Source of the DNA: Malassezia furfur
Taxonomy: Eukaryota
NCBI GenBank assembly: GCA_052055015.1
Contig: JBQJIT010000019.1
DNA: 20,000 nt
Strand: one strand, 5' to 3'
Part shown: positions 1,509-19,904 of the stretch, piece after piece
How the letters are laid out: every line of letters begins with the position of its first letter
Numbering within the stretch: position 1 is the first letter of the stretch
Made by a program: the position numbers and the translations under genes
The notes under the pieces: model-generated
Databases searched by the model: none
The model's input: the letters and a program-made list of their open reading frames with translations, nothing else
Told to the model about the DNA's origin: nothing

Positions 1509-1586
1509 GGCGGCTCGTGTTTCTCTCCGGCGCGTCGGCCGCGTTGGGCACGTGACATACGCACGGACGGGTTGGCCTCTTGCATC
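1509..1586. promoter_or_regulatory. 78-bp bidirectional promoter region with CACGTGAC (Cbf1-type E-box) at 1549-1556
   Basis: Divergent ATGs at 1508 (-) and 1587 (+); the motif sits in the middle of the spacer. Confidence 0.6.
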
Positions 1587-3164: not shown

Positions 3165-3166
3165 GT

Positions 3167-4762: not shown

Positions 4763-4950
4763 CGCCTTGGGAGACAAGCCACGCGACGTATTCGTCTATG
4801 GACCTAATAGGGTATATGGGTGTTGGCGGCACAAGTCGTCGTCGCAACCTCTGCACCTCCGTGCGTACGGCGGCGCGCAGCCGAACGTGCGGCGAAAGCC
4901 CTTGCGGTGGTATGCTAGATGCGATGCACCAAGGAGTTGCAGCGCAGGGA

Positions 4951-5148
4951 TCACCGCCGGCCGAACACATCGCCCTCCGAGTGGTCAGCTCGCGTCACGG
5001 TTGGCGCGCTTGGCGTGTGTGCGCTTGGTGCGCGTGCATCATGGTTGGATTTTTTGACGCTTTTCGCCTTGTTCTCTTCCATATTCCGGCGCATGTCTTC
5101 CACGTCTTGCTTCGTGAGCCCCAGCGCGGTGGGCGGACGGCGGATCAT
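4951..5148 (-). CDS. CDC26: Anaphase-promoting complex small subunit Cdc26-like, 65 aa
   Basis: ATG 5148 gives MIRRPPTALGLTKQDVEDMRRNMEENKAK..., matching the N-terminal M(L/I)RRxPTxLxLxxxD signature of Cdc26/Hcn1/APC12, followed by a low-complexity tail. It fills the gap between UGO1 and NCL1. Confidence 0.8.
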   Translation of the reverse strand: MIRRPPTALGLTKQDVEDMRRNMEENKAKSVKKSNHDARAPSAHTPSAPTVTRADHSEGDVFGRR

Positions 5149-5210
5149 GGTCGGCGGCCCCAACGCGTACGTCACGTGGAGGTGAAATTTTGTGCTCATT
5201 CTCAACCAGC
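5149..5210. promoter_or_regulatory. 62-bp bidirectional promoter region with GTCACGTG (5171-5178), ACGCGT (5163-5168) and an RRPE-like TGAAATTTT (5183-5191)
   Basis: Divergent ATGs of the CDC26-like gene (5148) and NCL1 (5211). The motifs are read directly; their function is inferred. Confidence 0.55.
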
Positions 5211-7883
5211 ATGGCCCGAGGCAGAGGCAAGCATCGTGGACGTGGCCGTGGCGGTCGCCAGGGTGGCGGTCGCAGCGAGGGAGAGCGCCACGGCGCGTAC
5301 TCGATTATCGACCAAAAGAACCCCAAGTTTGAGGCGTACTACCTGGGCCAGGAGATTCTGCCACGCGAGGAATGGGACGCCTTCCTGGAGGCGATGCGCA
5401 CGGCGCTTCCCACTACCTTCCGCATCACCTCGGGCAAGCCAACTTCGCGCCAGCTTCTGGATGCGATGCACGACATCTACCTGCCATTCTTGAGCAACGT
5501 CGAGTTTGAGGGCGAAAAAGTCGCCCCGCCGCGCCAGCTCGAATGGTACCCCGAGGGCCTTGGTTGGCACCTAGACGTGCGCAAGAACGTGCTGCGCAAG
5601 TCGCCCGAGTTCAAGCGGTTCCAGCAGTTCCTTGTGCACGAGACGGACGTCGGCTCCATCTCACGTCAAGAGGCCGTGTCGATGCTGCCGCCGCTCTTCT
5701 TGGACGTGCGCCCGGAGCACTTGGTGCTCGACATGTGCGCCGCTCCGGGCTCCAAGACGGCGCAGCTGATCGAGGCGATCCACTCCCCGGTGACATCAAA
5801 GCCTGATGCATTTGACCCGCTGCCGCTCGGCGTGGTGGTCGCCAACGACTCGGACACGAAGCGGGCCCATATGCTCGTGCACCAAGCACAGCGCCTCCCG
5901 TCGCCCAATCTATGTGTGACCAACGTGGACGCAAGCAGCTACCCCAACGTGAACGTCGCGTGGAAGGGCCCTAACGCGTCCGACAAGGTGGTCCAACGCG
6001 AGCTCAAGTACGACCGGATTCTTGCTGATGTGCCGTGCTCGGGCGATGGTACGCTCCGCAAGAACATTGCTATCTGGAAGGACTGGACTACCGGAAATGG
6101 TGTGGGTCTTCATGCGTTGCAGACGCGCATCCTGATCCGCGGCCTACAGCTCCTGCGTCCCGGCGGCCGCTTGGTGTACTCGACCTGCTCACTTAACCCG
6201 GTCGAGAATGAGGCGGTGGTGGGCGCCGCGCTGCGTCATTTCAAGGGTGACGTCGAGCTCGTCGACTGCTCCGATCTTCTCCCTGCGCTCAAGCGCCGGC
6301 CCGGTATGACCTCGTGGAAGGTCGCCCCCGGCCGTGGTGCGCATCTCTTCCCCAAGCAGGAGGGCGAGGCTGCGCCCACCGAAAAGCCCACTGAAGAGAG
6401 TGTACAGGATGAGGCGGCCGAGGTGGCGCCCGCAGACGCCCAGGCTGATGCCGCTGCGCCCCCGAAGCTGCCGCGCATTCCGTGGGTCGAGTCGTGGGAC
6501 GTGCTGCAGACGCTCGATGCCGACCTGGCTGCCCGCCTGCCGCGCAGCCTCTGGCCGCAAGGTGACGAGGCAGCGCTGCAGCTGGAGCGCTGCGTGCGTG
6601 TCTACCCTCACATGCAAAATACGGGCGGGTTCTTTGTGGCATGCCTCGTAAAGAAGGAGACCACCCCTGAGGACTCGGAGTCGCTTGCGGAGGGCATGGT
6701 GCGTGCCATGCAGGCGCTGGACCAGGAGCGCAGCAAGGAGACCGTCGTGGCCGAGGCCACGGCGGAATCCGGTGCGAAACGCGGTATCGAGGAGCCGAGT
6801 ACGGGTACGGACGAAGAGCCGGCCGCAAAGCGGGCGCGCTCGGACGGCTCGGAGGCGACAAGCGGCCCTGCTGAGGCGGACAAAACATCCGACGAGACGC
6901 CTGCCGCCATCGATGCTGCGCTGCCTGCTGCGGATAAGCACGAAGAAGATCGCAAGACGGCACAGAAGAAGCGCACGCAGCCAGAAGGAGTGGCGATTGG
7001 GCCTGGCGGAATGCCGTACCGCGAAGATCCGTTCGCCTACGTCAATCCCCAGAACGCTGAAGTGCAGTCGTGCGTGGAGTGGTTTGGCCTGCACGACTTC
7101 CCGGTGGGCAACTTGCTCGTGCGCAACGCGGAGCAGGTGCCGCTGCGCAGCATCTACCTCACATCGAGCTCGGTGCGTGCCATTGTGGCCGGCGGCGGAG
7201 TGGGCGTGGGTGTGCACCCGACAATGAACCCGATTCGCCTGCGTCTGCTCAACTGTGGTGTCAAGGTCTTCGGACGCCAGGAGTCAGTGAGCAAGGCGAA
7301 CCAGGCTGCGTTGCAGGCGGGCAACGCCGACGCGGATGCGCGCCGCGAGAGTTTGTCGACGTCGCTGACGTGCCGCTGGCGTGTTGTGTCCGACTCGCTG
7401 CATTCCATGCGCCCGTTTCTGAGCGACAAGGTGGTGATCCGTGCGTCACTGTCGGATCTGGCGTTCTTTATCAAGAACTATTACCCTGTGCTCGATAGCG
7501 TTCCGGGCGAAGTCGGTGCGCGTGTGCGCGAGTCAGCGATGGGAAGCTACGTGCTGGACATTGAGCCCAGCGAATACGAAAACCACAAGCTGACGGTGCC
7601 GCTGAGCTACCCAATCTGGCGCTCGATCGCCTCGGTGAACCTTATGCTGGACAAACAAGAGAAGAGCGCCCTCTCGTTCCGCTTGTTTGATACGGACCTG
7701 TCGGACCCGGAAGGACAGCGACAATTCTCGGCGAACCCGCGGAACCGCAACAACAAGAAGAACGCGGCCGAGCAGGTGGCAGGGGACAGTGCTGTGCTTA
7801 ATAACGAAGGCACAGACACCACCACCGAGCCCACCGAGCCGATGGAGGCCTCCGAGCCTGCAGAACCGGCCGCAGAGTCATAA
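5211..7883 (+). CDS. NCL1: tRNA (cytosine-5)-methyltransferase Ncl1/Trm4 (NSUN2 family), 890 aa
   Basis: ATG 5211 (MARGRGKHRG). Motifs include ISRQEAVSMLPP, VLDMCAAPGSKTAQL, DRILADVPCSGDGTLRKN, VYSTCSLNPVENEAVV (both catalytic Cys present) and RVYPHMQNTGGFFVA. Confidence 0.95.
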   Translation: MARGRGKHRGRGRGGRQGGGRSEGERHGAYSIIDQKNPKFEAYYLGQEILPREEWDAFLEAMRTALPTTFRITSGKPTSRQLLDAMHDIYLPFLSNVEFEGEKVAPPRQLEWYPEGLGWHLDVRKNVLRKSPEFKRFQQFLVHETDVGSISRQEAVSMLPPLFLDVRPEHLVLDMCAAPGSKTAQLIEAIHSPVTSKPDAFDPLPLGVVVANDSDTKRAHMLVHQAQRLPSPNLCVTNVDASSYPNVNVAWKGPNASDKVVQRELKYDRILADVPCSGDGTLRKNIAIWKDWTTGNGVGLHALQTRILIRGLQLLRPGGRLVYSTCSLNPVENEAVVGAALRHFKGDVELVDCSDLLPALKRRPGMTSWKVAPGRGAHLFPKQEGEAAPTEKPTEESVQDEAAEVAPADAQADAAAPPKLPRIPWVESWDVLQTLDADLAARLPRSLWPQGDEAALQLERCVRVYPHMQNTGGFFVACLVKKETTPEDSESLAEGMVRAMQALDQERSKETVVAEATAESGAKRGIEEPSTGTDEEPAAKRARSDGSEATSGPAEADKTSDETPAAIDAALPAADKHEEDRKTAQKKRTQPEGVAIGPGGMPYREDPFAYVNPQNAEVQSCVEWFGLHDFPVGNLLVRNAEQVPLRSIYLTSSSVRAIVAGGGVGVGVHPTMNPIRLRLLNCGVKVFGRQESVSKANQAALQAGNADADARRESLSTSLTCRWRVVSDSLHSMRPFLSDKVVIRASLSDLAFFIKNYYPVLDSVPGEVGARVRESAMGSYVLDIEPSEYENHKLTVPLSYPIWRSIASVNLMLDKQEKSALSFRLFDTDLSDPEGQRQFSANPRNRNNKKNAAEQVAGDSAVLNNEGTDTTTEPTEPMEASEPAEPAAES

Positions 7884-8000: not shown

Positions 8001-8082
8001 TGCGCCAAGGGGGAATCGAACCCCCGGCACAGCTACATCTTTGCGATGGCAAAGCTGTATTTTACCACTAAACCATTGGCGC
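8001..8082 (-). tRNA. tRNA-Gly (anticodon GCC) with an 11-nt intron at 8036-8046
   Basis: Minus strand: acceptor stem GCGCCAA/TTGGCGC, D arm TGGTTTAGTGGTAAAAT, anticodon stem CAGCT/AGCTG with loop TT-GCC-A^T, intron TCGCAAAGATG after position 37, T arm GGGGG-TTCGATT-CCCCC, discriminator A. Mature length is 71 nt. Confidence 0.96.
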
Positions 8083-8308: not shown

Positions 8309-9959
8309 TCAGGACGCACCAGTTTTGTCTTCCTTGTCCTTGGCGTCGGACTTATCCTTCGACTTGTCCTCGGGCGCCGCGTCGGCGCTCGGCTTGTTAC
8401 CCTGCGCGTCAGGCTGTGCCTTGGTTTTGGACGCCGCATCGCCCGCCGGCTCATCCTGCGGCCCCAGTTCGCCGCCCCAAATCGGGCGTGCGGGAGCCTT
8501 TTTGGTGTCGGCAGGCTTTTCGGCGTCCTTGGTCTTGGTCGTCTTTTTGTCCTGCATCTTGGCACGCGACTGCCGGAGGGCCTCGGTCACGGGCCGCGCA
8601 CCTTCCACGTCGTCCACAAACTCTTGCAGCAGCTCTTTCTGTCGCTTCGTAAGAGATCTAGGGTTAGCCGTGCGGAAGAGGGGGTACATACCTTGGGATC
8701 GTAATGTCAAATTGCACCATCAAATCGCCGTGCGACTCGTAGCTCTTGCGGTTCGTCAGGCGCGGTACGCCGCGGCCGCGCAGCACCATCTCCTCGCCCG
8801 GCTGCGTGCCCGACGGCACACGGACCTCGACGTCGCCGTCCAGCGTAGGCACACGCACTTTGCCACCGAGCACTGCCGTGTAGAAGGGAATGTGTGCAGG
8901 GTAGAACAGGTTCGTACCTTGGCGGCGCCAGATGCGGCTGGGCGCGACGTTGATACGCACCACAAGCGAACCTGCCTGCCCGTCACCCATGAGCGGCGCA
9001 TCTCCTGCTCCGTCCATCCGAATGCGGTAGCCATCGTCCACGCCCGCAGGGATGTTCACCGAAACCGTCCGCTTGATGCGGACGCGGCCGGCGCCCGAGC
9101 AGGTGTTGCACTCGTCACCGGGTGCAACCGTTGAGCCCGTGCCGTTGCAAGCAGGGCAGCTGCTTGCCATCTGGAAGCCGCCCTGGATCACAAACGTCCG
9201 TGTGCCGGTCCCGTTGCAGACCTCACACGTCTTGCGCTTCGCCTCAGGCTTGAGGCCCGACCCGGAGCAGGGCGTGCACCGCTCAATGGGCGAGATGGTC
9301 ACGGTACGGGTCGTACCCTTGCAAGCCTCATCAAAGGTGATGTTGATCGACGTGTCAATGTCTTCGCCACGCGTGTCCGCGGCAAAGCCGCCGCGCGCCG
9401 AACGGCCACCACCGAACGCGCCGCCGCCAAAAGCACCTCCAAAGAGCGACTCGAAGATGGACTCGGCACTACCCGCTGCATGGAAGCCGCCGAAGCCCGC
9501 GCCACCGAAGGGCGAACCGCCGCCGCCGAACGGATTGAAGCCGGCGGAGCCATCGGTAGTGCCAAACTTGTCGAACGAAGAGCGCTTCTCTGGGTCACTC
9601 AACAGGTCGTACGCGGCCTGAATCTCCACAAAGCGCTCCTTGGCGCCGGGCTCCTTGTTCGCATCGGGGTGGTATTTTTTGGCGAGTTGGTAGTATGCGT
9701 TCTTAATATCCTTAGCAGACGCGTCTTTGCTAACGCCCAGGGTCCCGTAAGGATCTTTGGGCACGCTCTCCCGGCGATTGCTCGTGCTGAACGAGCGCAC
9801 GCCGGCAATTAGCGCACCCTCGCGGCGCAGTGCATGGGTATGTTGGCGGCTCGCCTTGCGCGTGTGTGGCGTACAGGAAGTGAGCGTGCAGAATTGCGCG
9901 GAACGAGTCGGATGGCGTGCAGACGACCGGGAAAAGGCCCGGAGTCCTCCCATCGCCAT
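8309..9959 (-). CDS. MDJ1: Mitochondrial type I DnaJ chaperone Mdj1, about 538 aa; exons 9959-8692 and 8657-8309
   Basis: Arg/Ser-rich presequence-like N-terminus, J domain (KDPYGTLGV...LAKKYHPDANKE), G/F-rich region, four CxxCxGxG repeats and a DnaJ C-terminal domain. A 34-nt intron at 8658-8691 (GTATGT...GCTAAC-CCTAG) joins ITIPR to SLTKRQKELL. The start is uncertain (ATG at 10004, 9959 or 9953). Confidence 0.9.
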
Positions 9960-10152
9960 CTCGACACCTCCTTTCCTAGGTTGTCCAACAACGGATCCAG
10001 TCATGAGAAGGAGAGACGCGCGTGCGGCCGTGCTGCGTCGTTTATGTTCCGACCGAAATTCGGGTCGAGCTCGGCTTCCTACACTCCAGAAAATTCTTTC
10101 TATTGGCAAGCCACCCCCTCTTCCACGTGGGCGTGTGGAGGTTCGCTCGGCC

Positions 10153-10817
10153 TTACAATTGGGCCGGGGGAACCAGCTTGAGCGCGGCCAGGAAGGCCTG
10201 CGAGTACCTGGATGTCAGTCGCGTCAAGGCGGTCCACATACTGCAAGCATTGATCGTATACGGTCTGAAACGCATGATCGCCGAGCTTGAGTTAGTAAAG
10301 GCACATCGTACATACATAGTAAGGATCGTAAATCGTCTTCTTATCGTCGCTGAGTGAGTGTAGACCACGCACAATTCGGAAAAGAGCATGACCCTGATGT
10401 CAGCAAGAGCCACATACTGTGCTTTGGTCCCCTTCGGTTGGATACGCTTGAGGTTCTTGATGTTGTTCGAGCTGCCATTAGCCCATGCGTGCAGACGTAC
10501 TCCATGCCAAAGATGTAGTCAAACTTGTCGAAATCGCCCCGGTCAATGCTCCGTGCGAATGAGTTGATCGGCACGTTGTTCTTCCGGCAGATTTGTGTGG
10601 TGCTGCGTGAGCATGATGGCGCCTGGGTGCGTACATACCGCAGATCGGGCTCCTCGCCGACGTGGTAATCGGCGGTACCGCACGAATCAATCACACCAAA
10701 CTTATCCTGGACATTGTTCCGACGGACCGATTCGGCAAACACGGCCTCTGCCATAGGACTACGGCAGATGTTGCCCAGGCAGCAGAACAACACGTTGATC
10801 TTGTCTGCTCCACCCAT
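10153..10817 (-). CDS. LTP1: Low-molecular-weight protein tyrosine phosphatase, 162 aa, 7 exons
   Basis: Active-site loop VLFCCLGNICRSPMAEAVF. Removing six introns (10603-10638, 10472-10500, 10394-10417, 10350-10372, 10286-10315, 10208-10241) restores FDYIFGMDSNNIKNL, VMLFSEFDD, IYDPYY and FQTVYDQCLQYSQAFL, and gives a family-typical length. Confidence 0.92.
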
Positions 10818-10893
10818 CGTAGCAAATAACCGGGCGCACAAATCCCCGCTGATGTAAAAAGGTCCAATTTTTTGGCCAGTGGGTCTACCTCAT

Positions 10894-13031
10894 CTACGGC
10901 GCCACGGCGCCAAGCGCTGCCAGTGCGTGGAGGAAACCGGCCGGGTTGAGAATCTCGGTGCTCCCGTAGGTGATCTGCTTCAGGCTGCTTGTCCCCGGGG
11001 CCACTCCACCGGTGGCCGCCACCGAGCGAGCCACATACTCCTGCAGATTGGCGTATTCGACATAGCCGCCGCCGCCCACCACAAACACAATGGCATGCGC
11101 AAACGGCTGTCGTGCTTTGGCCCCGCCAGCCGCCATGGCAGTCCCGCGACCACGCGGCTGCCGAGGGTCAATGTAGAGGTACTCGTCCGTCTCCTGGAGC
11201 GCCTGGGCATTGCTCGCCGCCGGGTCCATGATAGAAGCAACCAGGCGGGTCACTGTAAAGTCCTTCTGAGCGGGTAGGAAGTTCTTCACACCGGCCACCA
11301 GATTCTCTAAGCGCGAGTCCTTTAGCCGGTCGGTAAGGCGGCTACCAAACGAGCTAAAGCCGCGCAACAACTCGCCGCCGCTGCTCTGCGCCGGCTGCGG
11401 CGCCGATGCCGCCAGGGAGAGCTGCGTGAGCTGCCGAATCTTTTTAACATATTCCAGCGCAGCAAGTTCCACGCCCTGTTCTTTGAGCACTGCCTCGAAT
11501 TCCTCCATGTCCTTCTCGTTCAGTGCATGGTTGGGGAGCGACAGGTAGTAGATCAAAAAAAGGCGCAGTTTGTCTTCCGCACCCTTCATCTCGGGGTTGC
11601 GCAGCGCTTCCAAGATTGCCGTCTTCGACTGGCGCGTGATGGATTCCTCCAGCTGATACAGCTCGTCCAGTCCTCGCGTCTTGATCCCCTGCAATAACGC
11701 CGTTGCAATGTTCATATGGGCGTCGATCGTCTGTTTCCGCGCCGTGAGTTTCGGCAGGGCGGTGACGGCGGCTTTGAGATGCGACGCGTTCGACGACGCA
11801 TCCAGCTGGCCAACTTCGTCCATGCTGCTGATTCCAGTCGAGCGCATAATCTCGTTCGCCTCGGTACGGTAGTTGTTCAGCTCGGCATCAATGTCCTCGG
11901 CGACCTGGGGGAAGGGTAGCTCGGCGTTCTTTGCCCAGAAGTAGTCCCGCGCATCCAGGTCGTAGGACCGCTTGGCCGCCGCTGGCTTCTCCGGGTCCTG
12001 CACCGTCACACGGTTCAGCTTGGTGTCTAGCACATCCTGCACCAATGCCTGGTAGGTCCATGAGTGAGCAATCATCGGGACCAGATCGACATTACGGTCC
12101 AGCAGCACCAGAACGGGCCGGTTGTTCATCCATGCAGCCGTTCCCACATTGCTCGACGCAAACAGCCCCGTCGCACCGCGCGAACCGGCGGTCTGCTCGC
12201 GCAGCTTCGCCTCCAGTTTCCGCGCGACCAGCTCGGCAGCACTGCCCCGCGGCGCACGAATGATGGGGACGGTCCCCATCGTGGCCAGCATGGAAAGAAG
12301 ACCGCCGGCAATCCGGTCCGTCTCTGCCTCGACTTGCTCCTGGCCCAACCCGGGGTGGTGGAGACGCTCGTAGGTCGTAGGAACGCGCTGCGGCGCTGAT
12401 CCACGCTGCGCAGGCGCCGCGGACCGCGGGAGCAGCTGGAACAGGTTAGGCTGCAGCACGATGAAGTTGAGGTATTGATCGTAGACCTGACGCACTTGGA
12501 CACCATTTCCCGTGCGAGCGACCTGCTGTGCCAGCTCATCTAAAAGCGGACGCGGCACGGCCGAGGTAAAGTTGATGTAGATAGACTCATACAGACGCGC
12601 ACCAACATCCTTAGCGATCCGCGCAATGTTTTCGCTGGTCGGAGAAACAAAATACACGGCAGGCACGTCGGGGAGCGGCGGCCGCTCAGAATGCAACTGC
12701 CTGCCGGTGAGTTTCCGTGTACGTACAAATGGAGCGTCACGCCATTCTCACGCAGGTCCTGTACCCGCAAGCTGGTGGACAGGATATCGGTGCTCGTTGG
12801 GTCCATGACGAGCACCTTCCACACGGGCGGTGCTTTGGGCACACTGGCCTTCGCTTCGTCGTCGCCGCCCGTTTTGTTCGCACCTAGGTGCGTAAAGTCG
12901 GGATCATTGAAGTTGAGCAGTGACACAAGTGAACGCATCTGTGCTCCGCGCAGCTGTCCCAATGCATCTTTGGAATAGGTACCGGCACCTGCCGATCCAT
13001 TCCCTGCGCTGGCCCCGCCTCCAGATGCCAT
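10894..13031 (-). CDS. SLY1: Sec1/Munc18-family ER-Golgi trafficking protein Sly1, 703 aa; exons 13031-12727 and 12700-10894
   Basis: PVWKVLVMD...[15 protein letters not shown] joined to [21 protein letters not shown] through a 26-nt intron at 12701-12726. Further motifs are [31 protein letters not shown] and [14 protein letters not shown]...YGSTE. Confidence 0.95.
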
Positions 13032-13182
13032 AATGCGCGTTGGGCTGATGGGAAGTACACGCGACGGGTCATGCCACGTGCGCCGAATAAATTTGGTCAG
13101 CAACCGGCTACCGGCTGATGCGGGGTGCATACGTCGCCTTAAAAAATCTTGGCTCGCGTGCGCCGTGCCTTTATCTGAAGCC
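13032..13182. promoter_or_regulatory. 151-bp bidirectional promoter region (SLY1/TES1) with CACGTG at 13075-13080 and short A/T tracts
   Basis: Divergent ATGs at 13031 (-) and 13183 (+). Confidence 0.55.
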
Positions 13183-14344
13183 ATGTCCTCGACGCAGTCC
13201 CTCACGCCTCAGCAATGGGACGAACGGCTCCGTGAATTGACACAGGTAGAGGAGATTGGGCCTCTCCTTTTCGAAAGCTGCTCCGACGTACGTTTTCTAT
13301 CTAACGCAGACGTCGTATAAACCCGCTGCAGGGCGCGCTGTCTTTGGCGGCCTCCTCATCGCGCAAGCAATGGATGCGGCCAATCGAACCGTTCCTAAAG
13401 GGTACCACCAGCATGTACGTCGTCTCACTTACGTTTGAGGAAATGCATGTGCGTAGCGCCGCGCTAATTTAGGGAAAGTTCTTGAATCCAGGTCAAACCC
13501 GCAAATTCCACTTCGAGGTAACGCGACTGCGTGATGGTCGCTCCTATGCAACCCGACGCGTCGACGCTATCCAAGATGGCATTCTCGTTTTTACCGCGTC
13601 CATGTCGTTCCAGCGACCGGAGCAAGACCAGCCCGAGTATTTCGCTCCGCCGCCTGTTGTGAACGCCGCGAGCAAATTCGAACTGCTGCGCGAAGTCCCC
13701 GATGGACACAGCAACGTTGCGACACATGTACTCCCTCCGGAAATGTGCTTGTCTGGTGAGAACCTGTTCGACTATGCCATGGAAAATATGTCCAAGGACA
13801 GCAGATGGTATGCTTTCTTGGAAGCGACCAAGCGACACCAGGAATGGCTGCCGGTGGAGTATCGGTACGTGGCCGTCTTACCCAGCGTTGCTGTGCCCAC
13901 CATGTTCAACAAAATGGGAATGTACCAATTTGGTACCAAGGTTGCATTCTGGTTGCGGTCAAAGGGACCGTGCGTTGGCAACGAGAATTATCAACGCACC
14001 GTACTTGGATTCCATGTTGAGTACGTTTAGGTTCTTATTCAGCCAATTCCTGCTGGGAGCAATGCAGGCAAACATCAACAAAGGCCCTCCTTCCATGATG
14101 GCAAGCCTGGACCATACCATGTGGTTTTCCAACGCGTTCCACATGAGCGACTGGCTTCTAATGGTCGTGTGTATTCACTTTTGCTTACCCAGATTGAAAA
14201 TCAATCCACCAGCAATGGCCGTGCACTCATATTGGCCCGTATTTACAACAGTAATGGTGTCTTGGTTGCAACTACGGTATGCTATGGCATCGCTTATGAC
14301 AGATCCAAGAGGGCGTCCTCCGTTACAAGGCATCCAGGCTATAG
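13183..14344 (+). CDS. TES1: Peroxisomal acyl-CoA thioesterase II (TesB/ACOT8/Tes1 family), about 331 aa, 8 exons, C-terminal PTS1 (SRL)
   Basis: Motifs GRAVFGGLLIAQA, RLRDGRSYATRRVDAIQ, MMASLDHTMWF, GRALILARIY and IQEGVLR. Introns are at 13288-13309, 13415-13439, 13449-13472, 13865-13885, 14021-14042, 14167-14192 and 14277-14302. The spliced end reads YKASRL-stop. Confidence 0.88.
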
Positions 14345-14378
14345 AACACCACAGACATTAACACCTCCACATCTGTAT

Positions 14379-15840
14379 ATGGTTCCCAACGCGCGGAGCG
14401 TTGCTGTGTTGGAGAGCGTTCCGAGTTATGACGATTTTTTGGTACGCGCGAGGGGCTGATACAGAATACATACTTGCTCCCAAACATCCCTGTGATTATC
14501 CCATTTGACCTCGTCCAAGATTGGCCCGCTTATACCGACCTCGTTGATGGAGGCAAGGTGCATTGGACAGCACTCGCGTCTCGCTATGGTGATCACGAGG
14601 TGCCCGTCATCACCAAGAGCGACGAGGGATGTCACCCTAAGACACAGAAACTAGCTGAAGCGATTAAGCAGATCGAAAGAGCATCAAATGTGCCAATATA
14701 CATCAAAGATTGGCACCTGGTTCGCACAGCGCGAACCGATGCCTTGTCGCGTACTTCTGACGATCCCTCGAGCCGCACCTTGCCCTATCGTACACCCTTT
14801 CTGTTTGCTGATGACTGGATGAACAATGTTACACTTCCCGCGAAGAGCGATGCCGCCCCCTTTCTACCCGACGCGTGGCTCCTCTCAGAGCGTGGGGTAC
14901 CCCTTGAGTCAGATGATTTCCGGTTCTGCTATGCTGGCACAAAGGGTTCTTCTACACCTCTTCACCGAGATGGTAGGTACAGAGTACCACTGACACAGTC
15001 TGTTCGTACTAAACCTAATGCAGACGCGTCCTATTCCTGGAGCACCAATATTGCTGGACGGAAACGTTGGCGTCTTTTCGCGCCGGAGGATGCCCATTTG
15101 TTACGACGTACGTCGGATGCTCACAACAGGATTCCCTGATCGGCGTACCTCCGAACTTGCCCCCTCATTTGCAGTCATGGAGGCGTGGCGTGCCGACGGA
15201 AAGCTCGGACCGTACAGCGACGGCCTCGAAGGATGGACAGGGTGGGAGGAAGTTCGCTCGCGTGTATATACAGTGGAACAAGAGGTACGCGTGCTTTTAA
15301 CACAGCCGGGGCAAACTATATTTGTTCCATCAAATTGGTACCATGAAGTTGAGAACCTTACGGATTGCTTGAGCGTGCGTTGCAAAACATCACACAGCTT
15401 AATCACAATTGGTGCAACTCGGTGAACCTCATCAGCATGTATGAAGCCATGGAACACGAGGTATGTTGTGGACACGCCGCTGAGTCAGACCGACGATGTC
15501 ACGGAGGCGTTGAGCGATGTCCGCGAGATGCTTCAGCAGAACAACCCATCGGACTGGCAAACTGAGTTTGCAGGTCTTGTCCAAGACATTGTGCGCCAAG
15601 ATGCAGGCTGGGCCTGGGAAGGATTCTGGCACATGATCTTGCATAACATTACCCAGGTACCGTGTCAGGTACGTCGCGTCACTAATAAAGTCTATCTACC
15701 GCCCTTCCGAAGATTTTGTCTACGCTCGTATTCGTACGCTGATCAGCCGCTTCTCTCACCGAGAGGAAGCCGCCTGGCTTCCAGCCTCGGTTACAACAGA
15801 GCTTCGCCAGCTTTCGGCTGCGGTGGGACGGAACAATTAG
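14379..15840 (+). CDS. JMJD4: JmjC-domain 2-oxoglutarate/Fe(II) oxygenase, JMJD4-like, about 424 aa, 9 exons
   Basis: The spliced product contains PSYDDFLNTYLLPNIPVII, YIKDWHL, FADDWMN, DDFRFCYAG...TPLHRDVYASYSWSTNIAGRKRWRLF and QEPGQTIFVPSNWYHEVENLTDCLSLNHNWCN. Introns are at 14442-14464, 14973-14998, 15002-15023, 15108-15129, 15285-15305, 15375-15397, 15461-15488 and 15669-15690. Confidence 0.85.
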
Positions 15841-15907
15841 TCAGCATGTAGAAGAAGACGTCCCTCGCGGTAGGATGCAACGTTGCTCTTTTCTGCCTTC
15901 TTGCTCG

Positions 15908-18002
15908 ATGAACCACTCGGACGCGTTCGCACACAGCTCAAAGTACCGCTCTGGAAGTGCATGGGATATGCACCAAAACAACATTCGACCCTATTGGGAA
16001 ACGAACTCTCCAGCTGCCGAAAAGTATGCATCTCCGTCGATCCCGGCTGCTGCGCAGCTCCCCACGATGCTCCAATCGATGTATGTGGGCGAGCAACCGG
16101 CACCAACCCCGAATTGGTCGCCTGATCAGCAGCAATGGCTCTACCTTGATCCGAATGGGAATGTACAAGGCCCCTTTGCAGCCACGTCGATGCAGTCCTG
16201 GTACGAGCAGCAGTATCTTTACATGGACTTATTGGTGCGTAAAGCCGAAGAGACCACCTTCCGCCCGCTCTACAGCGTCGTGCAGGAAACGGCCAACTCG
16301 GTCACTCCATTCTTGGTCCCACCTATAGCGACCAAGAGTGCACCACACACGCCCAAACAGCCGGCTCGCACGACATCGGCGGGGGTTGCTACCCCCTCGG
16401 CGTTTGCGGCGGCCCCAGCGGCGGCTCCTTCTCCGGCGCGCGTACCGCAGGCCGAGGCGCTTGAGTCCGCACGCTCCCAGGTCGTTCCAGAACCGGAGCC
16501 CGCGTCGAATGCGGACACCCAGCCGCCGTCTAATCTCACGCCCGAAGATCTGAACACAGCCCTCCGTGTGATGAAACAGCTAGAGTCGATGCTCGTTAAA
16601 AATGGCGCATCGGAGGTTCAAATTACCGAGATGCTTCAGCGCGCAATCTCTACAGCGATGCCGCATGCCAATGCGGCTGGCATTGACCAGATGCAGGCTG
16701 CCGTGCGGGACCAGCGCGGGGAAGCTGCTGCTGAACGAGCCACGTCTGCACCGCAACAGGCTGCGCGGGAAGAGCCTGCGCCGGAAGCGCCGGCAGAGAA
16801 CGTGTCGAGCAAGTCCACGGCGCCTTCTTTGCCAGACGATACCCAACCCTCGTCACAGGACACCCCGAAAGAGAAGCCCAAATCACGTCGCGCAGCGAAG
16901 CGCGAGGCACAGGCCGCTCGTGAAGCGCAGGCTGCTGAGGCTGCGACTGCGTCGGAGCCAGGTACCACCGCCCCGGAGATGGTGGCTCAGGCGTCGGACG
17001 CGCCGGCCGAACCTGTGTCCTCGGGGTCCTCGTCTGCGCTCCCTCCGAAGCCCAAGGTGGCTCCGTGGGCGTCGCCCGCGCAGAAAGGGCCCGCGCAGAC
17101 TTCGCCTGCACCCAAATTGCGTGAGATTCTCGAACGCGAGGAGCGCGAGCGTGCTGCGCGCCTCGCCCAAGAAAAGGCACTGGCTACTGCGCGTCTGGCA
17201 CACGAGGGGGCAGCGCCTGCGCCTGTTCAGACGACACCGACTCGCTCGTCGTCTGGTGCTGCCTGGAGTATACCTACCAAGACACCGGCCGCGAAGTCGC
17301 TTTCTCAGATTCAGCAGGAGGAGAGTCTCGCAGCGGAGCGTGCCAAGGCGGCGCTGCCGCCGCGTCCTGCGGCATACAGCAGCTCTGCTACGCGTGGTGC
17401 GACTACAGCTGAACCGCCCCGCCACAATGAGCCATGGACCAAGGTAGGTGCCCAGGGCAAACCCGTGCCTGCCGCTGCGCCGAAGCCTGCAGCGCCCCCG
17501 AAGCCTGCGGCTGCGCCGAAGCCTACCGCTTCGAAGCCTGTCACGGCGTCAGTGTCCGCACTGGCCGTCGACCCGACGCCCGCGTGGACCGACAGCGAGA
17601 GTGGGTGGGTCACGAAAAAGTCCAAGGGTCAAGTGCGCCGCGACGCGCTAAGCCAAATGAACGACGGGATTCCCCGCCCGACGGGCGCTCCTGCTGGGCT
17701 TTCCGCACCACAACCGCAACGAACGGCCCCCTCTACGACGCCGCTGCCGCCCAGCCCCGAATTCTTGCGGTACTGTCGTGAGCAGCTGCGCGATCTCCAA
17801 GCGAATGGTATGTTCTGTTTCTAACGCAGTCGACGAGTTCTTGGACATGCTCCTGTCCTTCCCCCTGAACCCGTCGCCCGACGTGGTCGAGATCATTGCC
17901 GAGGCAGTGTACGCGAACAGCAAGACGCTTGATGGCCGTCGCTTTGCGGCCGATTTTGTCAATCGGCGCAAGAAGGACGCGTTCCGTGCAGTAGCTTTGT
18001 AA
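15908..18002 (+). CDS. GYF-domain protein (Smy2/Syh1/GIGYF-like), about 690 aa; intron at 17808-17829
   Basis: GYF-like domain QWLYLDPNGNVQGPFAATSMQSWYEQQYLYMDLLVRK, a long Pro/Ala-rich middle region with LREILEREE and SLSQIQQEE motifs, and a conserved C-terminus PSPEFLRYC...NVDEFLDMLLSFP...LDGRRFAADFVNRRKKD after removing a 22-nt intron. An alternative in-frame ATG lies at 15875. Confidence 0.85.
17471..17539 (+). repeat. Coding minisatellite of three 18-nt units plus a 15-nt degenerate unit (AAAPKP-AAPPKP-AAAPKP-TASKP)
   Basis: gccgctgcgccgaagcct / gcagcgcccccgaagcct / gcggctgcgccgaagcct / accgcttcgaagcct. Confidence 0.8.
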
Positions 18003-18026
18003 TGAATTAGCAACAGAGGGCAAGTT

Positions 18027-19904
18027 CTATGAGGGCTGGTGCGCACCAGAGGGGGTATGCCCGTCCGCCGAGGGGGGCACAGCCGGCGTCGGTGCCGCCG
18101 CCGCGGCGCTCGGTTCGGCGCCCTTCTGTTGCGGAGGCGCCAACGGAGCCTGCACGGGCGCGGGCGGCCCCGGTGCGGGTGCAGGTGCGGGTGCGGCAGA
18201 GGCTGGTGCATTGGCCGACTGCGCAGGCGGCGCCGCGAGCGGCTCGTTGGCGTCCCCTGCCGCCGGTGCAGCGCTGTGCGTTGGCTGTCCTACCGGTTCG
18301 GCCGCCGAAGCCGGTACCCCCGTGGGCTCCTCCGGGTCCACCTCCATCTCGGTCGGCGCCGGCCGCGGCTCGACGGCCGGGGCAGGCGTCGGCTGCTGCG
18401 GCTCGGGTCGGTGGGAGTGCACGTTGCGGCGGCCGCCCTCGCCCTCGTCCTCTGAATCGCTCAGATCGCCATCGCGCTGGATCCGCTTGTCACGCAAACG
18501 TTGAATTTTGCTCGCACGCTCATCGGGGTTGTCCATATCATCGTCTTCGTCGTCGAGCGCCATGTCGTGGGCCAGGCGCGGCTCCACATGGCCTTGCACC
18601 GACGGCGCCGGTGTGATGTGACGCAGGTTCTCAAACACCTGTTCTTTAACCTTGTCGAGGTACTCGCGTGTGTTGAGATTTTCCATGTTGCTCGGGCGCA
18701 CGTCCAAGCGATAGTCTGGCCCAAAGTACTCGTAATACTCGTTCACCGGCACGATCGGGTTCAGCTCTTGCCCCGCCGCGAGGCCCGTTTCGTAGGCCCA
18801 CGCGCGGCTCACGTTCCGCATCGTATAGCCACCACCACCAAGCAGCAAGAGGGGCAAACCAAAGCTTTTGACAAACTCGACACAATTTGCATGCCCACGC
18901 ATCGACAGGTTGAAACAGCCCAGCTTGTCGCCCGACAGAGAGTCGGAACCACACTGGAGCACCACGGCCGAAGGCTGGTACTGTTCCATAATCCGCCGGA
19001 TAACCGGCTCAAACACGTATTTGTACGACTCGTCAGTGATCCCATCGCGCAGGGGAACATTGCACGCATAATTCTTCCCCTTTCCAATGCCCGTGTCACG
19101 CAGCTCACCCGTGCCCGGGAAAAACTCGCCATATTTATGGAAGGAGCACGTCATCACACGGTCCGTCGTGTAGAAAGCCTCCTCAACACCATCTCCGTGG
19201 TGCACGTCGATGTCGATATACAGGACGCGCGGATGGTAGCGCAACAGTTCGAGGATACCCAGGACAATGTCGTTGATGTAGCAGAACCCGCTCGCCTCGC
19301 CCTTTTTGGCATGATGCAATCCGCCGGCCCAGTTTACTGCAATGTCGCACTTGTCGCGCGAGAGACGCGCCGCGCCCTCTGAGGTTAGCAGGATTCACGC
19401 TTGGCTACGCACCCATTGATCCGCCCGCGGAGATCGAGCAGTATTCAAAGAGGCCATCAAATACAGGACAATCGTCACCCACGTTGTCTGCTGTCAAGGG
19501 CTCGACACGTACATTTGGCCTGCTCGCGCACATAAGCGTCCACGTTGTCCGGCGTCACGCGGTGCAAAAAGTCAACGTAGTCGTCGGTATGAAATTGCGA
19601 CATCTCGCGCTTGGTCGCCGGCTTGGCACGCTACCGTCAGACATTCACGTACAAAAATCTCCATCTTCTTGTACAGGCCATAGTTCATCACCAGCGAGTG
19701 ACACATCCGAATACGCGTGGGTTTCATGGGGTGCCCCGGCCCATAATGGTAGTTTCCGATATCCGAGTCGAAGAAGTAGCACACCCGGGACGGATTGCTT
19801 GAACCTTTAGACACAGGTTCCATGAGCGGCATGCCGCCCGCTCCAGGAATTGCAGGCCCTGAGGAGCCGCCTGCGGCATTCGAAGGCAGAAACGTCGAGC
19901 TCAT
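18027..19904 (-). CDS. RPD3: Class I histone deacetylase Rpd3/Clr6, 598 aa, 4 exons
   Basis: Motifs [94 protein letters not shown] and the acidic [13 protein letters not shown] tail. Introns are at 19631-19652 (22 nt), 19488-19512 (25 nt) and 19379-19412 (34 nt). Confidence 0.97.

What the first reader, a model, noticed from the sequence alone, without database searches (positions are those of the whole stretch)
8658..19652. A population of ultra-short spliceosomal introns (27 introns, 21-36 nt, median 24)
Seen in sequence: seven genes only yield family-typical proteins after removing 27 GT-AG segments. Their lengths are 21 (x2), 22 (x7), 23 (x3), 24 (x2), 25 (x2), 26 (x4), 28, 29, 30, 34 (x3) and 36 nt. 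Each consists of a GTAYGT/GTGCGT-type donor, a few spacer bases, a CTRAC/CTCAC/CTTAC-like branch site and AG a few nt later, with no polypyrimidine tract. The branch A lies only about 16-17 nt from the donor G in the smallest (e.g. GTACGTGGCCGTCTTACCCAG). Established: most Dikarya introns are substantially longer, introns near 20 nt are known mainly from ciliates, nucleomorphs and microsporidia, and Malassezia is known for short introns. Inference: this lineage may use an altered spliceosome assembly route, because U1 and U2 can hardly co-occupy such introns, and gene finders with default minimum intron lengths will mis-annotate these genes.
Basis: partly seen in the sequence, partly recalled or inferred. 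Interest (0 to 1): 0.8.

Follow-up and report, generated by a model that had tools for sequence, protein, structure and literature searches.

The report
Tiny introns in Malassezia furfur genes
Seven neighbouring genes of the skin yeast Malassezia furfur are interrupted by 27 apparently genuine but extremely small introns (21-36 bases), a trait already known for this genus that still misleads automatic gene annotation.

Summary
The window is Malassezia furfur nuclear DNA. I rebuilt the seven genes and found the same 27 GT-AG segments with the same length list (21-36 nt, median 24). After removal, every junction is collinear with intron-independent references: orthologue alignments, Pfam profile positions, numbering on solved Rpd3 and Sly1 chains, and a bacterial DnaJ. 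A strict donor/branch/AG pattern hits 22 times against 2.3 +/- 1.6 in shuffles, and all 22 hits lie at these introns.

Two tiny exons lie between introns. A 9-nt exon (EMH) and a 3-nt exon (TCT) are each needed to restore a conserved motif.

The kind is known. Curated M. sympodialis introns average 30 bp with 99% RNA-seq support, and the M. restricta median is 30.

The mis-annotation inference is supported: public M. furfur models use only 7 of the 21 introns that could be compared, and they fuse two genes.

The "altered spliceosome" idea is untested. No RNA reads or genome were available. This is a real, tidy case of modest novelty.

The parts
8309..9959 (-). g1: mitochondrial-type DnaJ (Mdj1-like) CDS, 2 exons, 538 aa
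   Evidence: Pfam DnaJ, DnaJ_CXXCXGXG and DnaJ_C. NCBIfam TIGR02349 positions 3-336 of 354 end exactly at the end of exon 1.
8658..8691 (-). g1 intron, 34 nt, GTATGT...CTAAC...TAG
   Evidence: The spliced model aligns without a gap across the junction (DITIPR|SLTKRQKELLQEF) to an uninterrupted bacterial DnaJ, L015. Unspliced, the frame stops inside the intron.
10153..10817 (-). g2: low-molecular-weight phosphotyrosine phosphatase (LTP1/stp1) CDS, 7 exons, 162 aa
   Evidence: Pfam LMWPc: exon 1 covers profile positions 1-48 and exon 2 covers 52-84. Collinear with 16 aligned orthologues.
10603..10638 (-). g2 intron 1, 36 nt
   Evidence: The junction EEPDLR|TTQIC is collinear with the orthologues. 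It is also used in the public model P0156.
10472..10500 (-). g2 intron 2, 29 nt
10394..10417 (-). g2 intron 3, 24 nt
   Evidence: It brings in the 21-nt exon encoding VMLFSE(F), which matches the conserved v.LFG[DE] block of Ustilago, Tilletia, mucoralean and yeast orthologues.
10373..10393 (-). g2 21-nt exon
   Evidence: Present in the aligned non-Malassezia orthologues. Skipped in 3 public Malassezia models: P0156, P0161 and P0168.
10350..10372 (-). g2 intron 4, 23 nt
10286..10315 (-). g2 intron 5, 30 nt
10208..10241 (-). g2 intron 6, 34 nt
10894..13031 (-). g3: Sly1 (Sec1 family) CDS, 2 exons, 703 aa
   Evidence: Pfam Sec1. The best solved relative is yeast Sly1, 1mqs_A.
12701..12726 (-). 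g3 intron, 26 nt
   Evidence: Sec1 profile positions 1-28 (exon 1) and 33-574 (exon 2) are continuous once the unmatched residues and the junction codon are counted. Chain numbering is also continuous: SCFD1 46-80 then 83-159, and Sly1 55-88 then 93-663.
13183..14344 (+). g4: acyl-CoA thioesterase II CDS, 8 exons, 331 aa
   Evidence: Pfam 4HBT_3, Acyl_CoA_thio and 4HBT_3C on the exons. Same length as the M. pachydermatis protein P0005 (331 aa) and collinear with it apart from one 1-residue gap away from any junction.
13288..13309 (+). g4 intron 1, 22 nt
   Evidence: collinear with P0004 and P0005.
13415..13439 (+). g4 intron 2, 25 nt (ends GAG)
13440..13448 (+). g4 9-nt exon GAAATGCAT (Glu-Met-His)
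   Evidence: It restores H-x-x-H directly before G-x-F-L. The spacing from RTV is 10 residues, the same as in uninterrupted homologues (VHSLH|GYF in L001-L006 and L010) and as HEIH in P0004 and P0005.
13449..13472 (+). g4 intron 3, 24 nt
   Evidence: Also used by the public model P0001.
13865..13885 (+). g4 intron 4, 21 nt (one of the two smallest)
   Evidence: The junction PVEYR|VAVPT is collinear with P0003, P0004 and P0005.
14021..14042 (+). g4 intron 5, 22 nt
14167..14192 (+). g4 intron 6, 26 nt
   Evidence: 4HBT_3C profile positions 76-105 then 110-134 are continuous.
14277..14302 (+). g4 intron 7, 26 nt
14379..15840 (+). g5: JmjC/cupin hydroxylase-like CDS, 9 exons, 424 aa
   Evidence: Pfam JmjC and Cupin_8 on the exons. 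Collinear with 13 full-length orthologues.
14442..14464 (+). g5 intron 1, 23 nt
14973..14998 (+). g5 intron 2, 26 nt (donor GTAGGT)
14999..15001 (+). g5 3-nt exon TCT (completes the codons G|TC and T|AC, giving Val-Tyr)
   Evidence: It gives HRDVYASYSW. Of the 13 aligned orthologues, 11 have D-V-Y-x-SYSW. A related uninterrupted ORF, P0011, reads LHRDVYTSYSW. A single 51-nt intron would give HRDDASYSW.
15002..15023 (+). g5 intron 3, 22 nt (donor GTTCGT)
15108..15129 (+). g5 intron 4, 22 nt
15285..15305 (+). g5 intron 5, 21 nt (branch TTAAC)
   Evidence: The next exon matches Pfam JmjC positions 87-109.
15375..15397 (+). g5 intron 6, 23 nt (branch ATCAC)
15461..15488 (+). g5 intron 7, 28 nt (branch CTGAG)
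15669..15690 (+). g5 intron 8, 22 nt
   Evidence: ITQVPCQ|SIYRPS is collinear with ..TPPCAPSLRPP.. of the orthologues. The public model uses a 34-nt alternative that deletes VPCQ.
15875..18002 (+). g6: GYF-domain protein CDS, 2 exons, 701 aa (the true start may be the second ATG, near 15908)
   Evidence: Pfam GYF. N-terminal alignment.
17808..17829 (+). g6 intron, 22 nt
   Evidence: LRDLQAN|VDEFLDMLLSFPL is collinear with 16 aligned orthologues, including Tilletiaria, Violaceomyces and Ceratobasidium. Unspliced, the frame stops inside the intron.
18027..19904 (-). g7: class I histone deacetylase (Rpd3 orthologue) CDS, 4 exons, 598 aa
   Evidence: Pfam Hist_deacetyl. Solved Rpd3 and HDAC1/2 chains.
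19631..19652 (-). g7 intron 1, 22 nt
   Evidence: Exon 1 matches residues 9-64 and exon 2 matches 65-103 of yeast Rpd3, 7yi0_B.
19488..19512 (-). g7 intron 2, 25 nt (ends CAGCAG; the 22-nt alternative would add one residue)
   Evidence: Exon 2 ends at Rpd3 residue 103, the junction codon is 104, and exon 3 covers 105-128.
19379..19412 (-). g7 intron 3, 34 nt
   Evidence: Exon 3 covers Rpd3 105-128, the junction codon is 129, and exon 4 covers 130-431.

Best explanation
These are ordinary U2-type GT-AG spliceosomal introns in the minimal form typical of the compact Malassezia genome; the window is M. furfur.

Each intron consists of four parts:
- a 6-nt donor (GTRYGT-like);
- a spacer of 6-21 nt;
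- a 5-nt branch motif (CTNAY-like);
- 4-7 further bases ending in AG.

All three splice signals therefore sit within 21-36 nt. Recognition is presumably by intron definition. The 3' site is taken as the first usable AG five or more bases after the branch A, without a polypyrimidine tract.

Where two such introns lie 3 or 9 nt apart, the bases between them act as constitutive micro-exons, and the two introns must be removed one after the other.

What is shown: the sequence signals, frame restoration, collinearity with relatives, and the failure of public gene models. What is inferred: actual excision in RNA, the branch points, the order of removal, and the intron-definition mechanism.
For: Organism: an exon is 99% identical to an M. 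furfur protein.

Junctions: all 27 of 27 are collinear with references that do not depend on my splice choices.
- g2: 16 orthologues.
- g5: 13 orthologues.
- g6: 16 orthologues.
- g4: Malassezia orthologues plus uninterrupted homologues.
- g7: numbering on yeast Rpd3 runs 9-64, 65-103, 105-128 and 130-431, with one junction codon in each one-residue gap.
- g3: Pfam Sec1 profile and Sly1/SCFD1 chain numbering.
- g1: an uninterrupted bacterial DnaJ.

Signals: all 27 have GT...AG; 25 of 27 have G at position 5 followed by T at position 6, and the other two have C at position 6. 23 of 27 have CTNAY. The branch A is 5-8 nt from the 3' end in all 27. The 3' site is the first AG after that A in 26 of 27; the exception skips an AG only 3 nt away.

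Specificity: 22 strict-pattern hits against 2.3 +/- 1.6 in 200 shuffles, all at these introns and all on the sense strand.

Precedent in the genus: 5350 curated M. sympodialis introns with mean 30 bp, 99% supported by RNA-seq (Zhu 2017, PMC5389616, Table 2 passage). M. restricta intron average/median is 37.2/30 (PMC9241646, Table 1 passage). A review states 'very short introns' (PMC7426719, passage).
Against: There is no RNA evidence for this locus.

The g4 orthologues are all predicted Malassezia proteins. Exon 5 of g4 has no Pfam hit of its own.

The two donors flanking the 3-nt exon (GTAGGT and GTTCGT) are the two least typical of the set. Three public models of other species read HRDD there, as a single intron would give: M. 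vespertilionis P0318 and the two Ceraceosorus models. I do not know whether those models had RNA support.

Four branch motifs depart from CTNAY.

The expected depletion of 3n introns is not significant (6 of 27, P = 0.15).

The strict pattern was derived from the same introns.
Confidence: 0.9

Rival explanations
1. One reading: the lineage uses an altered spliceosome assembly route or composition, because U1 and U2 cannot sit together on introns whose donor-to-branch distance is only 16-31 nt. Possibilities include changed or lost U1 snRNP, SF1/U2AF or SF3b parts, or sequential rather than simultaneous recognition.
For: The donor G to branch A distance is 16-19 nt in 17 of 27 introns. Only 5-8 nt follow the branch A, which leaves no room for a classical U2AF65 tract. 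For Stentor (15-16 nt introns), an abstract reports non-conserved regions of branching factors and reduced protein sizes, so such adaptations are conceivable (PMC9505925, abstract). My searches found no paper on the Malassezia spliceosome.
Against: Nothing in the window bears on it: Rfam finds only a tRNA, and no genome was available. Donor, branch and AG signals are canonical. In Stentor all snRNAs are present, and in myxozoans with introns under 30 bp the authors report canonical U2-dependent recognition and U2AF1/2 (PMC13644364, passage). So short length alone does not demand a new route.
Confidence: 0.12
2. One or both micro-exons are not used, or not used constitutively. In that case 14973-15023 is removed as one 51-nt intron (giving HRDDASYSW), 13415-13472 is removed as one 58-nt intron (losing EMH), or both happen. 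There would then be 25 or 26 introns, two of them longer.
For: Both single-intron versions keep the frame (51 and 58-9... i.e. differences of 3 and 9 nt). Public models read HRDD in M. vespertilionis P0318 and in two Ceraceosorus species, and read QQ---HGKF in M. yamatoensis and M. psittaci. The donors beside the 3-nt exon are atypical.
Against: Of 13 aligned orthologues, 11 have DVYxSYSW, and an uninterrupted related ORF (P0011) encodes LHRDVYTSYSW. The 3 nt supply exactly the T and T needed for Val and Tyr. Uninterrupted homologues have VHSLH|GYF with the same spacing as HQHEMH|GKF. Each internal intron has its own donor, branch motif and AG in the standard geometry. The public models that lack the residues come from pipelines that demonstrably skip small exons at this locus.
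Confidence: 0.18
3. The segments are not introns at all. They would be assembly or sequencing insertions, or disabling insertions in pseudogenes, or sites bypassed at translation.
For: No direct RNA evidence was obtainable.
Against: All 27 segments carry GT...AG, a donor consensus and a branch motif in fixed geometry, which random insertions would not. The same intron positions appear as frame breaks in ORFs called on independent assemblies: P0006-P0013 and P0157 stop or read through at the same places. All seven genes are conserved housekeeping genes with intact exons.
Confidence: 0.01

Closest known systems
Malassezia sympodialis curated intron set (Zhu et al. 2017, NAR, PMC5389616; passages and Table 2 read; legend of supplementary Fig. 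S8 only)
   Same: Same genus. It has 5350 introns with mean size 30 bp, 99% supported by RNA-seq. Micro-exon search and a 10-bp minimum intron length were needed. Automatic models gave longer apparent introns (means 50-65 bp) and fused neighbouring genes.
   Different: Different species. No per-intron architecture, minimum length or micro-exon statement was seen in the text I read. The 27 introns here have mean 25.6 and median 24, somewhat below the published mean, but this is a small local sample.
Malassezia restricta re-annotation (PMC6473144; PMC9241646 Table 1)
   Same: The annotators set the minimum intron length to 20 and then 15 nt. Intron average/median is 37.2/30 bp.
   Different: The median there is 30 against 24 here. 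No analysis of splice signals was seen.
Tiny introns of ciliates (Paramecium and Nyctotherus about 25 bp, PMC5014332 abstract; Stentor 15-16 nt, PMC9505925 abstract)
   Same: Whole populations of GT-AG introns of 15-30 nt are removed by a spliceosome that has all snRNAs. The same steric question arises.
   Different: A distant lineage with AT-rich genomes. Stentor introns are shorter and nearly uniform in length. Here the length varies (21-36 nt) through the spacer only, with a yeast-like strong branch motif.
Other lineages listed as having introns under 30 bp: Microsporidia, Dicyemida, myxobolid Myxozoa (PMC13644364, passages)
   Same: Reduced or compact genomes with ultra-short introns. Canonical U2-dependent signals and U2AF are reported for myxozoans.
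   Different: That 2026 list does not mention Malassezia. Microsporidian short introns are reported there as inefficiently spliced (median about 25%), whereas the M. sympodialis introns are 99% RNA-seq supported.
Ultra-short coding micro-exons (Coprinopsis cinerea: 27 exons of 3 nt from long reads, PMC12230235 passage; plants: Yu et al. 2022, PMC8831610 abstract)
   Same: Exons of 1-15 nt that encode conserved residues, are routinely missed by annotation, and break or shorten gene models when omitted.
   Different: Here the flanking introns are themselves only 22-26 nt, so the whole intron/exon/intron unit is 51 or 58 nt. There is no RNA evidence yet.

Membership tests
U2-type (major) GT-AG spliceosomal introns | GT at the 5' end and AG at the 3' end | tested here: met
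   27 of 27. The last three bases are CAG x21, TAG x3, AAG x2 and GAG x1.
U2-type (major) GT-AG spliceosomal introns | Extended donor consensus able to pair with U1/U6 (GTRNGT-like) | tested here: met
   GTACGT x10, GTATGT x7, GTGCGT x4, GTACGC x2 and four singletons. All 27 have G at position 5.
U2-type (major) GT-AG spliceosomal introns | Branch-point motif with an A upstream of the 3' splice site | tested here: met
   CTNAY in 23 of 27, with near variants in the other 4. The A is 5-8 nt from the 3' end in all 27. The branch points themselves are inferred from the motif, not mapped.
U2-type (major) GT-AG spliceosomal introns | Removal restores an open frame that is collinear with homologues | tested here: met
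   27 of 27 junctions.
U2-type (major) GT-AG spliceosomal introns | Excision observed in RNA (spliced reads, lariats) | not testable with these tools
U12-type (minor) introns | Donor [AG]TATCCTT and a TCCTTAAC-type branch (motifs recalled from memory) | tested here: not met
   None of the 27 donor hexamers is GTATCC or ATATCC.
Malassezia short-intron population | The DNA is from Malassezia | tested here: met
   98-99% identity of exons to M. furfur proteins. The next best hits are other Malassezia species.
Malassezia short-intron population | Lengths in the range published for the genus | tested here: met
   Mean 25.6 and median 24 here, against mean 30 in M. sympodialis and median 30 in M. 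restricta. The published length distributions were available only as a figure.
Constitutive coding micro-exons (15 nt or less) | Bounded by a functional acceptor and donor, and supplying conserved residues | tested here: met
   The 9-nt exon restores HxxH-GxF with the spacing of uninterrupted homologues. The 3-nt exon restores DVY.
Constitutive coding micro-exons (15 nt or less) | Inclusion seen in mRNA | not testable with these tools

The most novel reading that the evidence does not exclude
Malassezia furfur routinely splices introns whose donor-to-branch distance is only 16 nt, including pairs separated by a 3-nt exon. It manages this because its early spliceosome (U1 snRNP, SF1/U2AF, SF3b) has changed in composition or in order of assembly. 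That would make this genetically tractable basidiomycete yeast the shortest-intron system in the Dikarya and a practical model for how a spliceosome handles introns near the physical minimum.
Probability: 0.12. Interest if true: 0.7.

Novelty: new member of a known kind. Interest (0 to 1): 0.3.

Why it matters
There are three modest reasons.

1. Annotation. At this one locus the public M. furfur models use 7 of the 21 comparable introns. They fuse two genes, drop a JmjC exon that carries conserved catalytic-core residues, and skip a 21-nt exon of a phosphatase. Several other Malassezia annotations repeat these errors. Proteomes used for comparative and functional work on this skin commensal and pathogen are therefore locally wrong, and they could be corrected with simple rules: minimum intron about 20 nt, branch A 5-8 nt from the AG, and micro-exon search.

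2. Overlooked example. The intron-evolution literature I read lists ciliates, microsporidia, dicyemids and myxozoans as the exceptions with introns under 30 bp, and does not mention Malassezia. The genus is a free-living-style, culturable, transformable fungus with thousands of such introns.

3. Architecture. The geometry is very regular: a fixed branch-to-AG distance, with only the spacer varying from a floor of 6 nt. The 51-nt and 58-nt intron/micro-exon/intron units give concrete substrates for testing the minimal requirements of splicing.

Tried and rejected
- Whole genome: none is held, so I made no genome-wide intron distribution and no snRNA or splicing-factor inventory.
- Rfam on the window found only a tRNA.
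- The metagenome scan for Malassezia DNA around the micro-exons returned 14 loci. None is a close Malassezia relative: the best segment is 67% identical over 33 residues, and the others are 38-63%. They served only as uninterrupted homologues for the HxxH spacing.
- For the C-terminal exon of g1, the PDB search gave 0 matches and NCBIfam gave no meaningful hit. A bacterial dnaJ locus was used instead.
- Depletion of 3n introns, or in-frame stops as in ciliates: 6 of 27 are 3n (P = 0.15) and 2 of those 6 carry an in-frame stop. This is not informative.
- The 22-nt version of g7 intron 2 (my first model) was rejected in favour of 25 nt, because Rpd3 numbering and the Pfam profile allow only one junction residue.
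- The nested donor at 10634 (32 nt) was rejected because it breaks the frame.
- The earlier-findings look-ups gave nothing on this genome or on Malassezia.
- Literature searches for a Malassezia spliceosome or branch-point study found none. Searches for an M. furfur intron description also found none: 'intron' occurs 0 times in the main text of the M. furfur genome paper PMC9040865 and of PMC10410736. Supplements of those two papers were not examined.

Full report
**What the window is.** The 20-kb window has 51-67% G+C. One exon of the fourth gene is 99% identical to a protein named 'hypothetical protein CBS9595_001072 [Malassezia furfur]'. Exons of two other genes find M. furfur or other Malassezia proteins first. 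I therefore treat the window as nuclear DNA of M. furfur or a very close relative. Everything below rests on sequence and comparison, not on RNA.

**Checking the observation.** I scanned both strands for donor-like starts followed by a branch-like motif and AG. I then built models for seven genes by joining frames, using coordinates only. The genes are:
- a mitochondrial-type DnaJ (minus strand, 1 intron);
- a low-molecular-weight phosphotyrosine phosphatase (minus, 6 introns);
- Sly1 of the Sec1 family (minus, 1);
- an acyl-CoA thioesterase II (plus, 7);
- a JmjC/cupin protein (plus, 8);
- a GYF-domain protein (plus, 1);
- an Rpd3-type histone deacetylase (minus, 3).

Pfam assigns these families to the individual exons. 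The 27 introns have lengths 21x2, 22x7, 23x3, 24x2, 25x2, 26x4, 28, 29, 30, 34x3 and 36, with median 24 and mean 25.6.

**Are the junctions right?** Each junction was tested against something that does not depend on my splice choices.

- Phosphatase (g2). The search with exon 1 returned 577 proteins. I aligned 16 chosen across Malassezia, Ustilaginomycotina, Mucoromycota, Saccharomycotina and Glomeromycota. The model is collinear with the non-Malassezia sequences at all six junctions, including the 21-nt exon that encodes VMLFSE(F).
- JmjC gene (g5). The exhaustive search with exon 2 gave 190 proteins at E <= 0.001. Of the 150 listed, 33 were 380-480 residues long. I aligned the 13 with the best full-length score and dropped the other 20. 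The model is collinear at all eight junctions.
- GYF gene (g6). 39 proteins were found and 16 aligned, using the last 130 residues only. There is no gap at the junction.
- Thioesterase (g4). Only 5 proteins were found, all Malassezia. The model has the same length as the M. pachydermatis protein (331 aa). It aligns to it with one 1-residue gap, which lies away from the junctions.
- Deacetylase (g7). The four exons match yeast Rpd3 chain 7yi0_B at residues 9-64, 65-103, 105-128 and 130-431. That is contiguous, with exactly one junction codon in each one-residue gap. This excludes the 22-nt alternative of intron 2.
- Sly1 (g3). The Pfam Sec1 profile (1-28, then 33-574) is continuous once the unmatched end residues and the junction codon are counted. 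The same holds for the numbering on rat SCFD1 (46-80, then 83-159) and yeast Sly1 (55-88, then 93-663).
- DnaJ (g1). Exon 1 ends at position 336 of the 354-position NCBIfam DnaJ model. The spliced protein aligns without a gap across the junction to an uninterrupted bacterial DnaJ...TIPR|SLTKRQKELLQEF against ...TPVNLSPEEQDLLVQF.

All 27 of 27 junctions are therefore supported by collinearity. None is supported by RNA.

**More than chance?** I applied a strict pattern: donor GT[AGT]YG[TC], CTNAY with its A 5-8 nt from an HAG end, and total length of 36 nt or less. It hits 22 times on the two strands of the window. 200 dinucleotide-preserving shuffles give 2.3 +/- 1.6 hits, with a maximum of 7. 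Of the 22 hits, 21 are among the 27 introns and the 22nd is a nested donor inside one of them. The six introns that the pattern misses have a variant branch motif, a variant donor or a GAG end. The pattern was derived from these introns, so the excess is partly built in. The complete absence of hits on antisense strands and in the rest of the window is not built in.

**Anatomy.**
- Donors: GTACGT x10, GTATGT x7, GTGCGT x4, GTACGC x2, and GTGTGT, GTATGC, GTAGGT and GTTCGT once each.
- Branch motifs: CTAAC x5, CTCAC x4, CTAAT x4, CTGAC x4, CTTAC x3, CTTAT x2, CTGAT x1, plus TTAAC, TTGAC, ATCAC and CTGAG.
- The putative branch A lies 5 nt (x15), 6 nt (x9), 7 nt (x2) or 8 nt (x1) from the 3' end.
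- Length varies only through the spacer between donor hexamer and branch pentamer. The spacer is 6-21 nt and is never below 6.
- The 3' site is the first AG after the A in 26 of 27. The exception skips an AG only 3 nt after the A (a CAGCAG end).
- The spacer is 52% pyrimidine, so there is no polypyrimidine tract there.
- Intron G+C is 52%.
- Phases are 12, 6 and 9 for phases 0, 1 and 2.
- Six of 27 introns are multiples of three (P = 0.15 for depletion), and two of those six carry an in-frame stop.
- Exons are as small as 3, 9, 21, 34, 42 and 44 nt.

**Two micro-exons.**

Between the 25-nt and 24-nt introns of the thioesterase lie 9 nt (13440-13448, Glu-Met-His). With them the protein reads RTVPKGYHQHEMH|GKFLNPG. 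Uninterrupted homologues on metagenome contigs read RTVAPGRLVHSLH|GYFMRPG (L001-L006, and similarly L010). They have the same ten residues between RTV and G-x-F, and the second His aligned. M. pachydermatis and Malassezia sp. CBS 17886 read HEIH. A single 58-nt intron would delete three residues, including that His.

Between the 26-nt and 22-nt introns of the JmjC gene lie 3 nt (14999-15001, TCT). They complete G|TC and T|AC to give Val-Tyr, so the protein reads HRDVYASYSW. Of the 13 aligned orthologues, 11 have D-V-Y-x-SYSW. A related ORF called on an uninterrupted stretch (P0011, 429 aa, source unnamed) reads LHRDVYTSYSW.

Several points count against the 3-nt exon:
- A single 51-nt intron also keeps the frame, giving HRDDASYSW.
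- One M. vespertilionis model and both Ceraceosorus models read HRDD.
- The two donors involved are the least typical of the 27.
- The whole 51 nt has no in-frame stop, so full retention would also be in frame (P0006).

I put the 9-nt exon at about 0.9 and the 3-nt exon at about 0.8.

**How it most likely works.** The signals are those of ordinary U2-type introns, reduced to the smallest layout that still holds a donor, a yeast-like strong branch motif and an AG. I infer three things from the geometry, none of which is shown:
- recognition is across the intron;
- the 3' site is chosen as the first AG at a permissible distance from the branch;
- introns that flank a micro-exon are removed sequentially, because the downstream donor and the upstream acceptor are only 3 or 9 nt apart.

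Nothing here tests it. In other tiny-intron lineages the papers I read report complete snRNA sets and core factors: the Stentor abstract and the myxozoan passage.

**What is already known.**
- A review says Malassezia genes contain 'very short introns' (PMC7426719, passage).
- The manually curated M. sympodialis annotation has 5350 introns of mean 30 bp, 99% supported by RNA-seq. Automatic runs gave means of 50-65 bp and many fused genes. The authors used an intron range of 10-2000 bp and micro-exon search (PMC5389616, passages and Table 2). Their length distribution is only a figure.
- M. restricta was re-annotated with minimum intron lengths of 20 and then 15 (PMC6473144). Its intron average/median is 37.2/30 (PMC9241646, Table 1).
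- An earlier MAKER annotation of M. globosa reports an average of 76-79 bp (PMC4634964). In the light of the above, that probably reflects the same annotation problem.
- For M. furfur itself I found no statement on introns. The genome paper annotated with the AUGUSTUS web server trained on M. restricta, and the word 'intron' occurs 0 times in its main text (PMC9040865). The 2023 multi-species paper used funannotate and also has 0 occurrences (PMC10410736). The supplements of both were not read.
- A 2026 paper on the shortest animal introns lists ciliates, Microsporidia and Dicyemida as the exceptions below 30 bp, without Malassezia (PMC13644364).
- Exons of 1-3 nt are documented in another basidiomycete, Coprinopsis cinerea (27 exons of 3 nt; PMC12230235), and in plants (PMC8831610, abstract).

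**Public models at this locus.**
- The M. furfur protein P0001 (559 aa) starts inside thioesterase intron 2, skips thioesterase exon 5, and joins thioesterase exon 7 to JmjC exon 2.
- It also skips the JmjC exons that encode VYASYSWSTNIAGRKRW... and PGQTIFVPSNWYHEVENLTDCLS. The latter matches Pfam JmjC positions 87-109. From memory, its His is one of the iron ligands.
- It uses a 34-nt alternative to the last intron. In all it uses 3 of the 15 introns of these two genes.
- M. yamatoensis P0002 is a similar chimera.
- The M. furfur 'stp1' model P0156 uses 4 of 6 introns and skips the 21-nt exon, as do the M. pachydermatis and CBS 17886 models. The M. vespertilionis model reads through three introns.

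These models come from strains 98-99% identical to the window, not necessarily from the same assembly.

**Verdict.** The thing is real. Its kind, ultra-short canonical introns in Malassezia, is in print for sister species. The M. furfur instances, their regular geometry, the two micro-exons and the concrete annotation errors are new details rather than a new phenomenon. The altered-spliceosome idea remains an open, untested possibility.

Noticed in passing
window 8001-8082 (-): A tRNA gene (Rfam tRNA, 57.5 bits). ARAGORN could not name it and reported a 2-letter 'anticodon'. By eye it looks like a Gly(GCC)-type tRNA with a short intron of about 10-11 nt after the anticodon loop. It lies between the NSUN2-like gene and the DnaJ gene.
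   Followed up: partly
window 13183-15840 (+), compared with P0001 and P0002: The public M. furfur (559 aa) and M. yamatoensis (553 aa) proteins are chimeras of the thioesterase and the neighbouring JmjC gene. They are made by treating intron+exon+intron stretches, and the 34-nt intergenic gap plus flanking introns, as single long introns.
   Followed up: yes
window 10373-10393 (-): A 21-nt exon of the LMW phosphatase, which encodes the conserved v.LF..[FD] block, is skipped in 3 public Malassezia models (M. furfur, M. pachydermatis, Malassezia sp. CBS 17886).
   Followed up: yes
P0040 and P0322 (Ceraceosorus guamensis and C. bombacis) and P0318 (M. vespertilionis), at the HRD site: These models read HRDD-TSYSW, exactly what skipping a 3-nt exon between two phase-1 introns would give. 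The intron pair around the Val-Tyr micro-exon may therefore be older than Malassezia and may be mis-modelled elsewhere in the Ustilaginomycotina. No DNA of those species could be examined.
   Followed up: partly
window 19488-19512 (-): The second Rpd3 intron ends in CAGCAG. The proximal AG is only 3 nt after the putative branch A and appears unused. This hints at a minimum branch-to-AG distance of about 5 nt, and at possible NAGNAG-type alternative splicing.
   Followed up: partly
window 1-7883: Four genes appear as single long open frames with no need for introns: a Cep57-like coiled-coil protein (minus strand, runs off the window), a GT4 glycosyltransferase of ALG2 type, a mitochondrial carrier, and an NSUN2/Trm4-like RNA methyltransferase. 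Intron density is therefore very uneven: 0 in about 8 kb against 27 in about 11 kb (2.6 per kb of CDS). The upstream models were not checked against orthologues.
   Followed up: partly
window 14973-15023 (+): The 51-nt intron/3-nt exon/intron unit is a multiple of three with no in-frame stop. Full retention would insert 17 residues after HRD without breaking the frame, as in the ORFs P0006, P0315 and P0316 called on other assemblies.
   Followed up: no
window 15875-15910 (+): The first ATG of the GYF gene model adds 11 residues that have no counterpart in the M. psittaci protein. The second ATG (about 15908) is probably the real start.
   Followed up: partly
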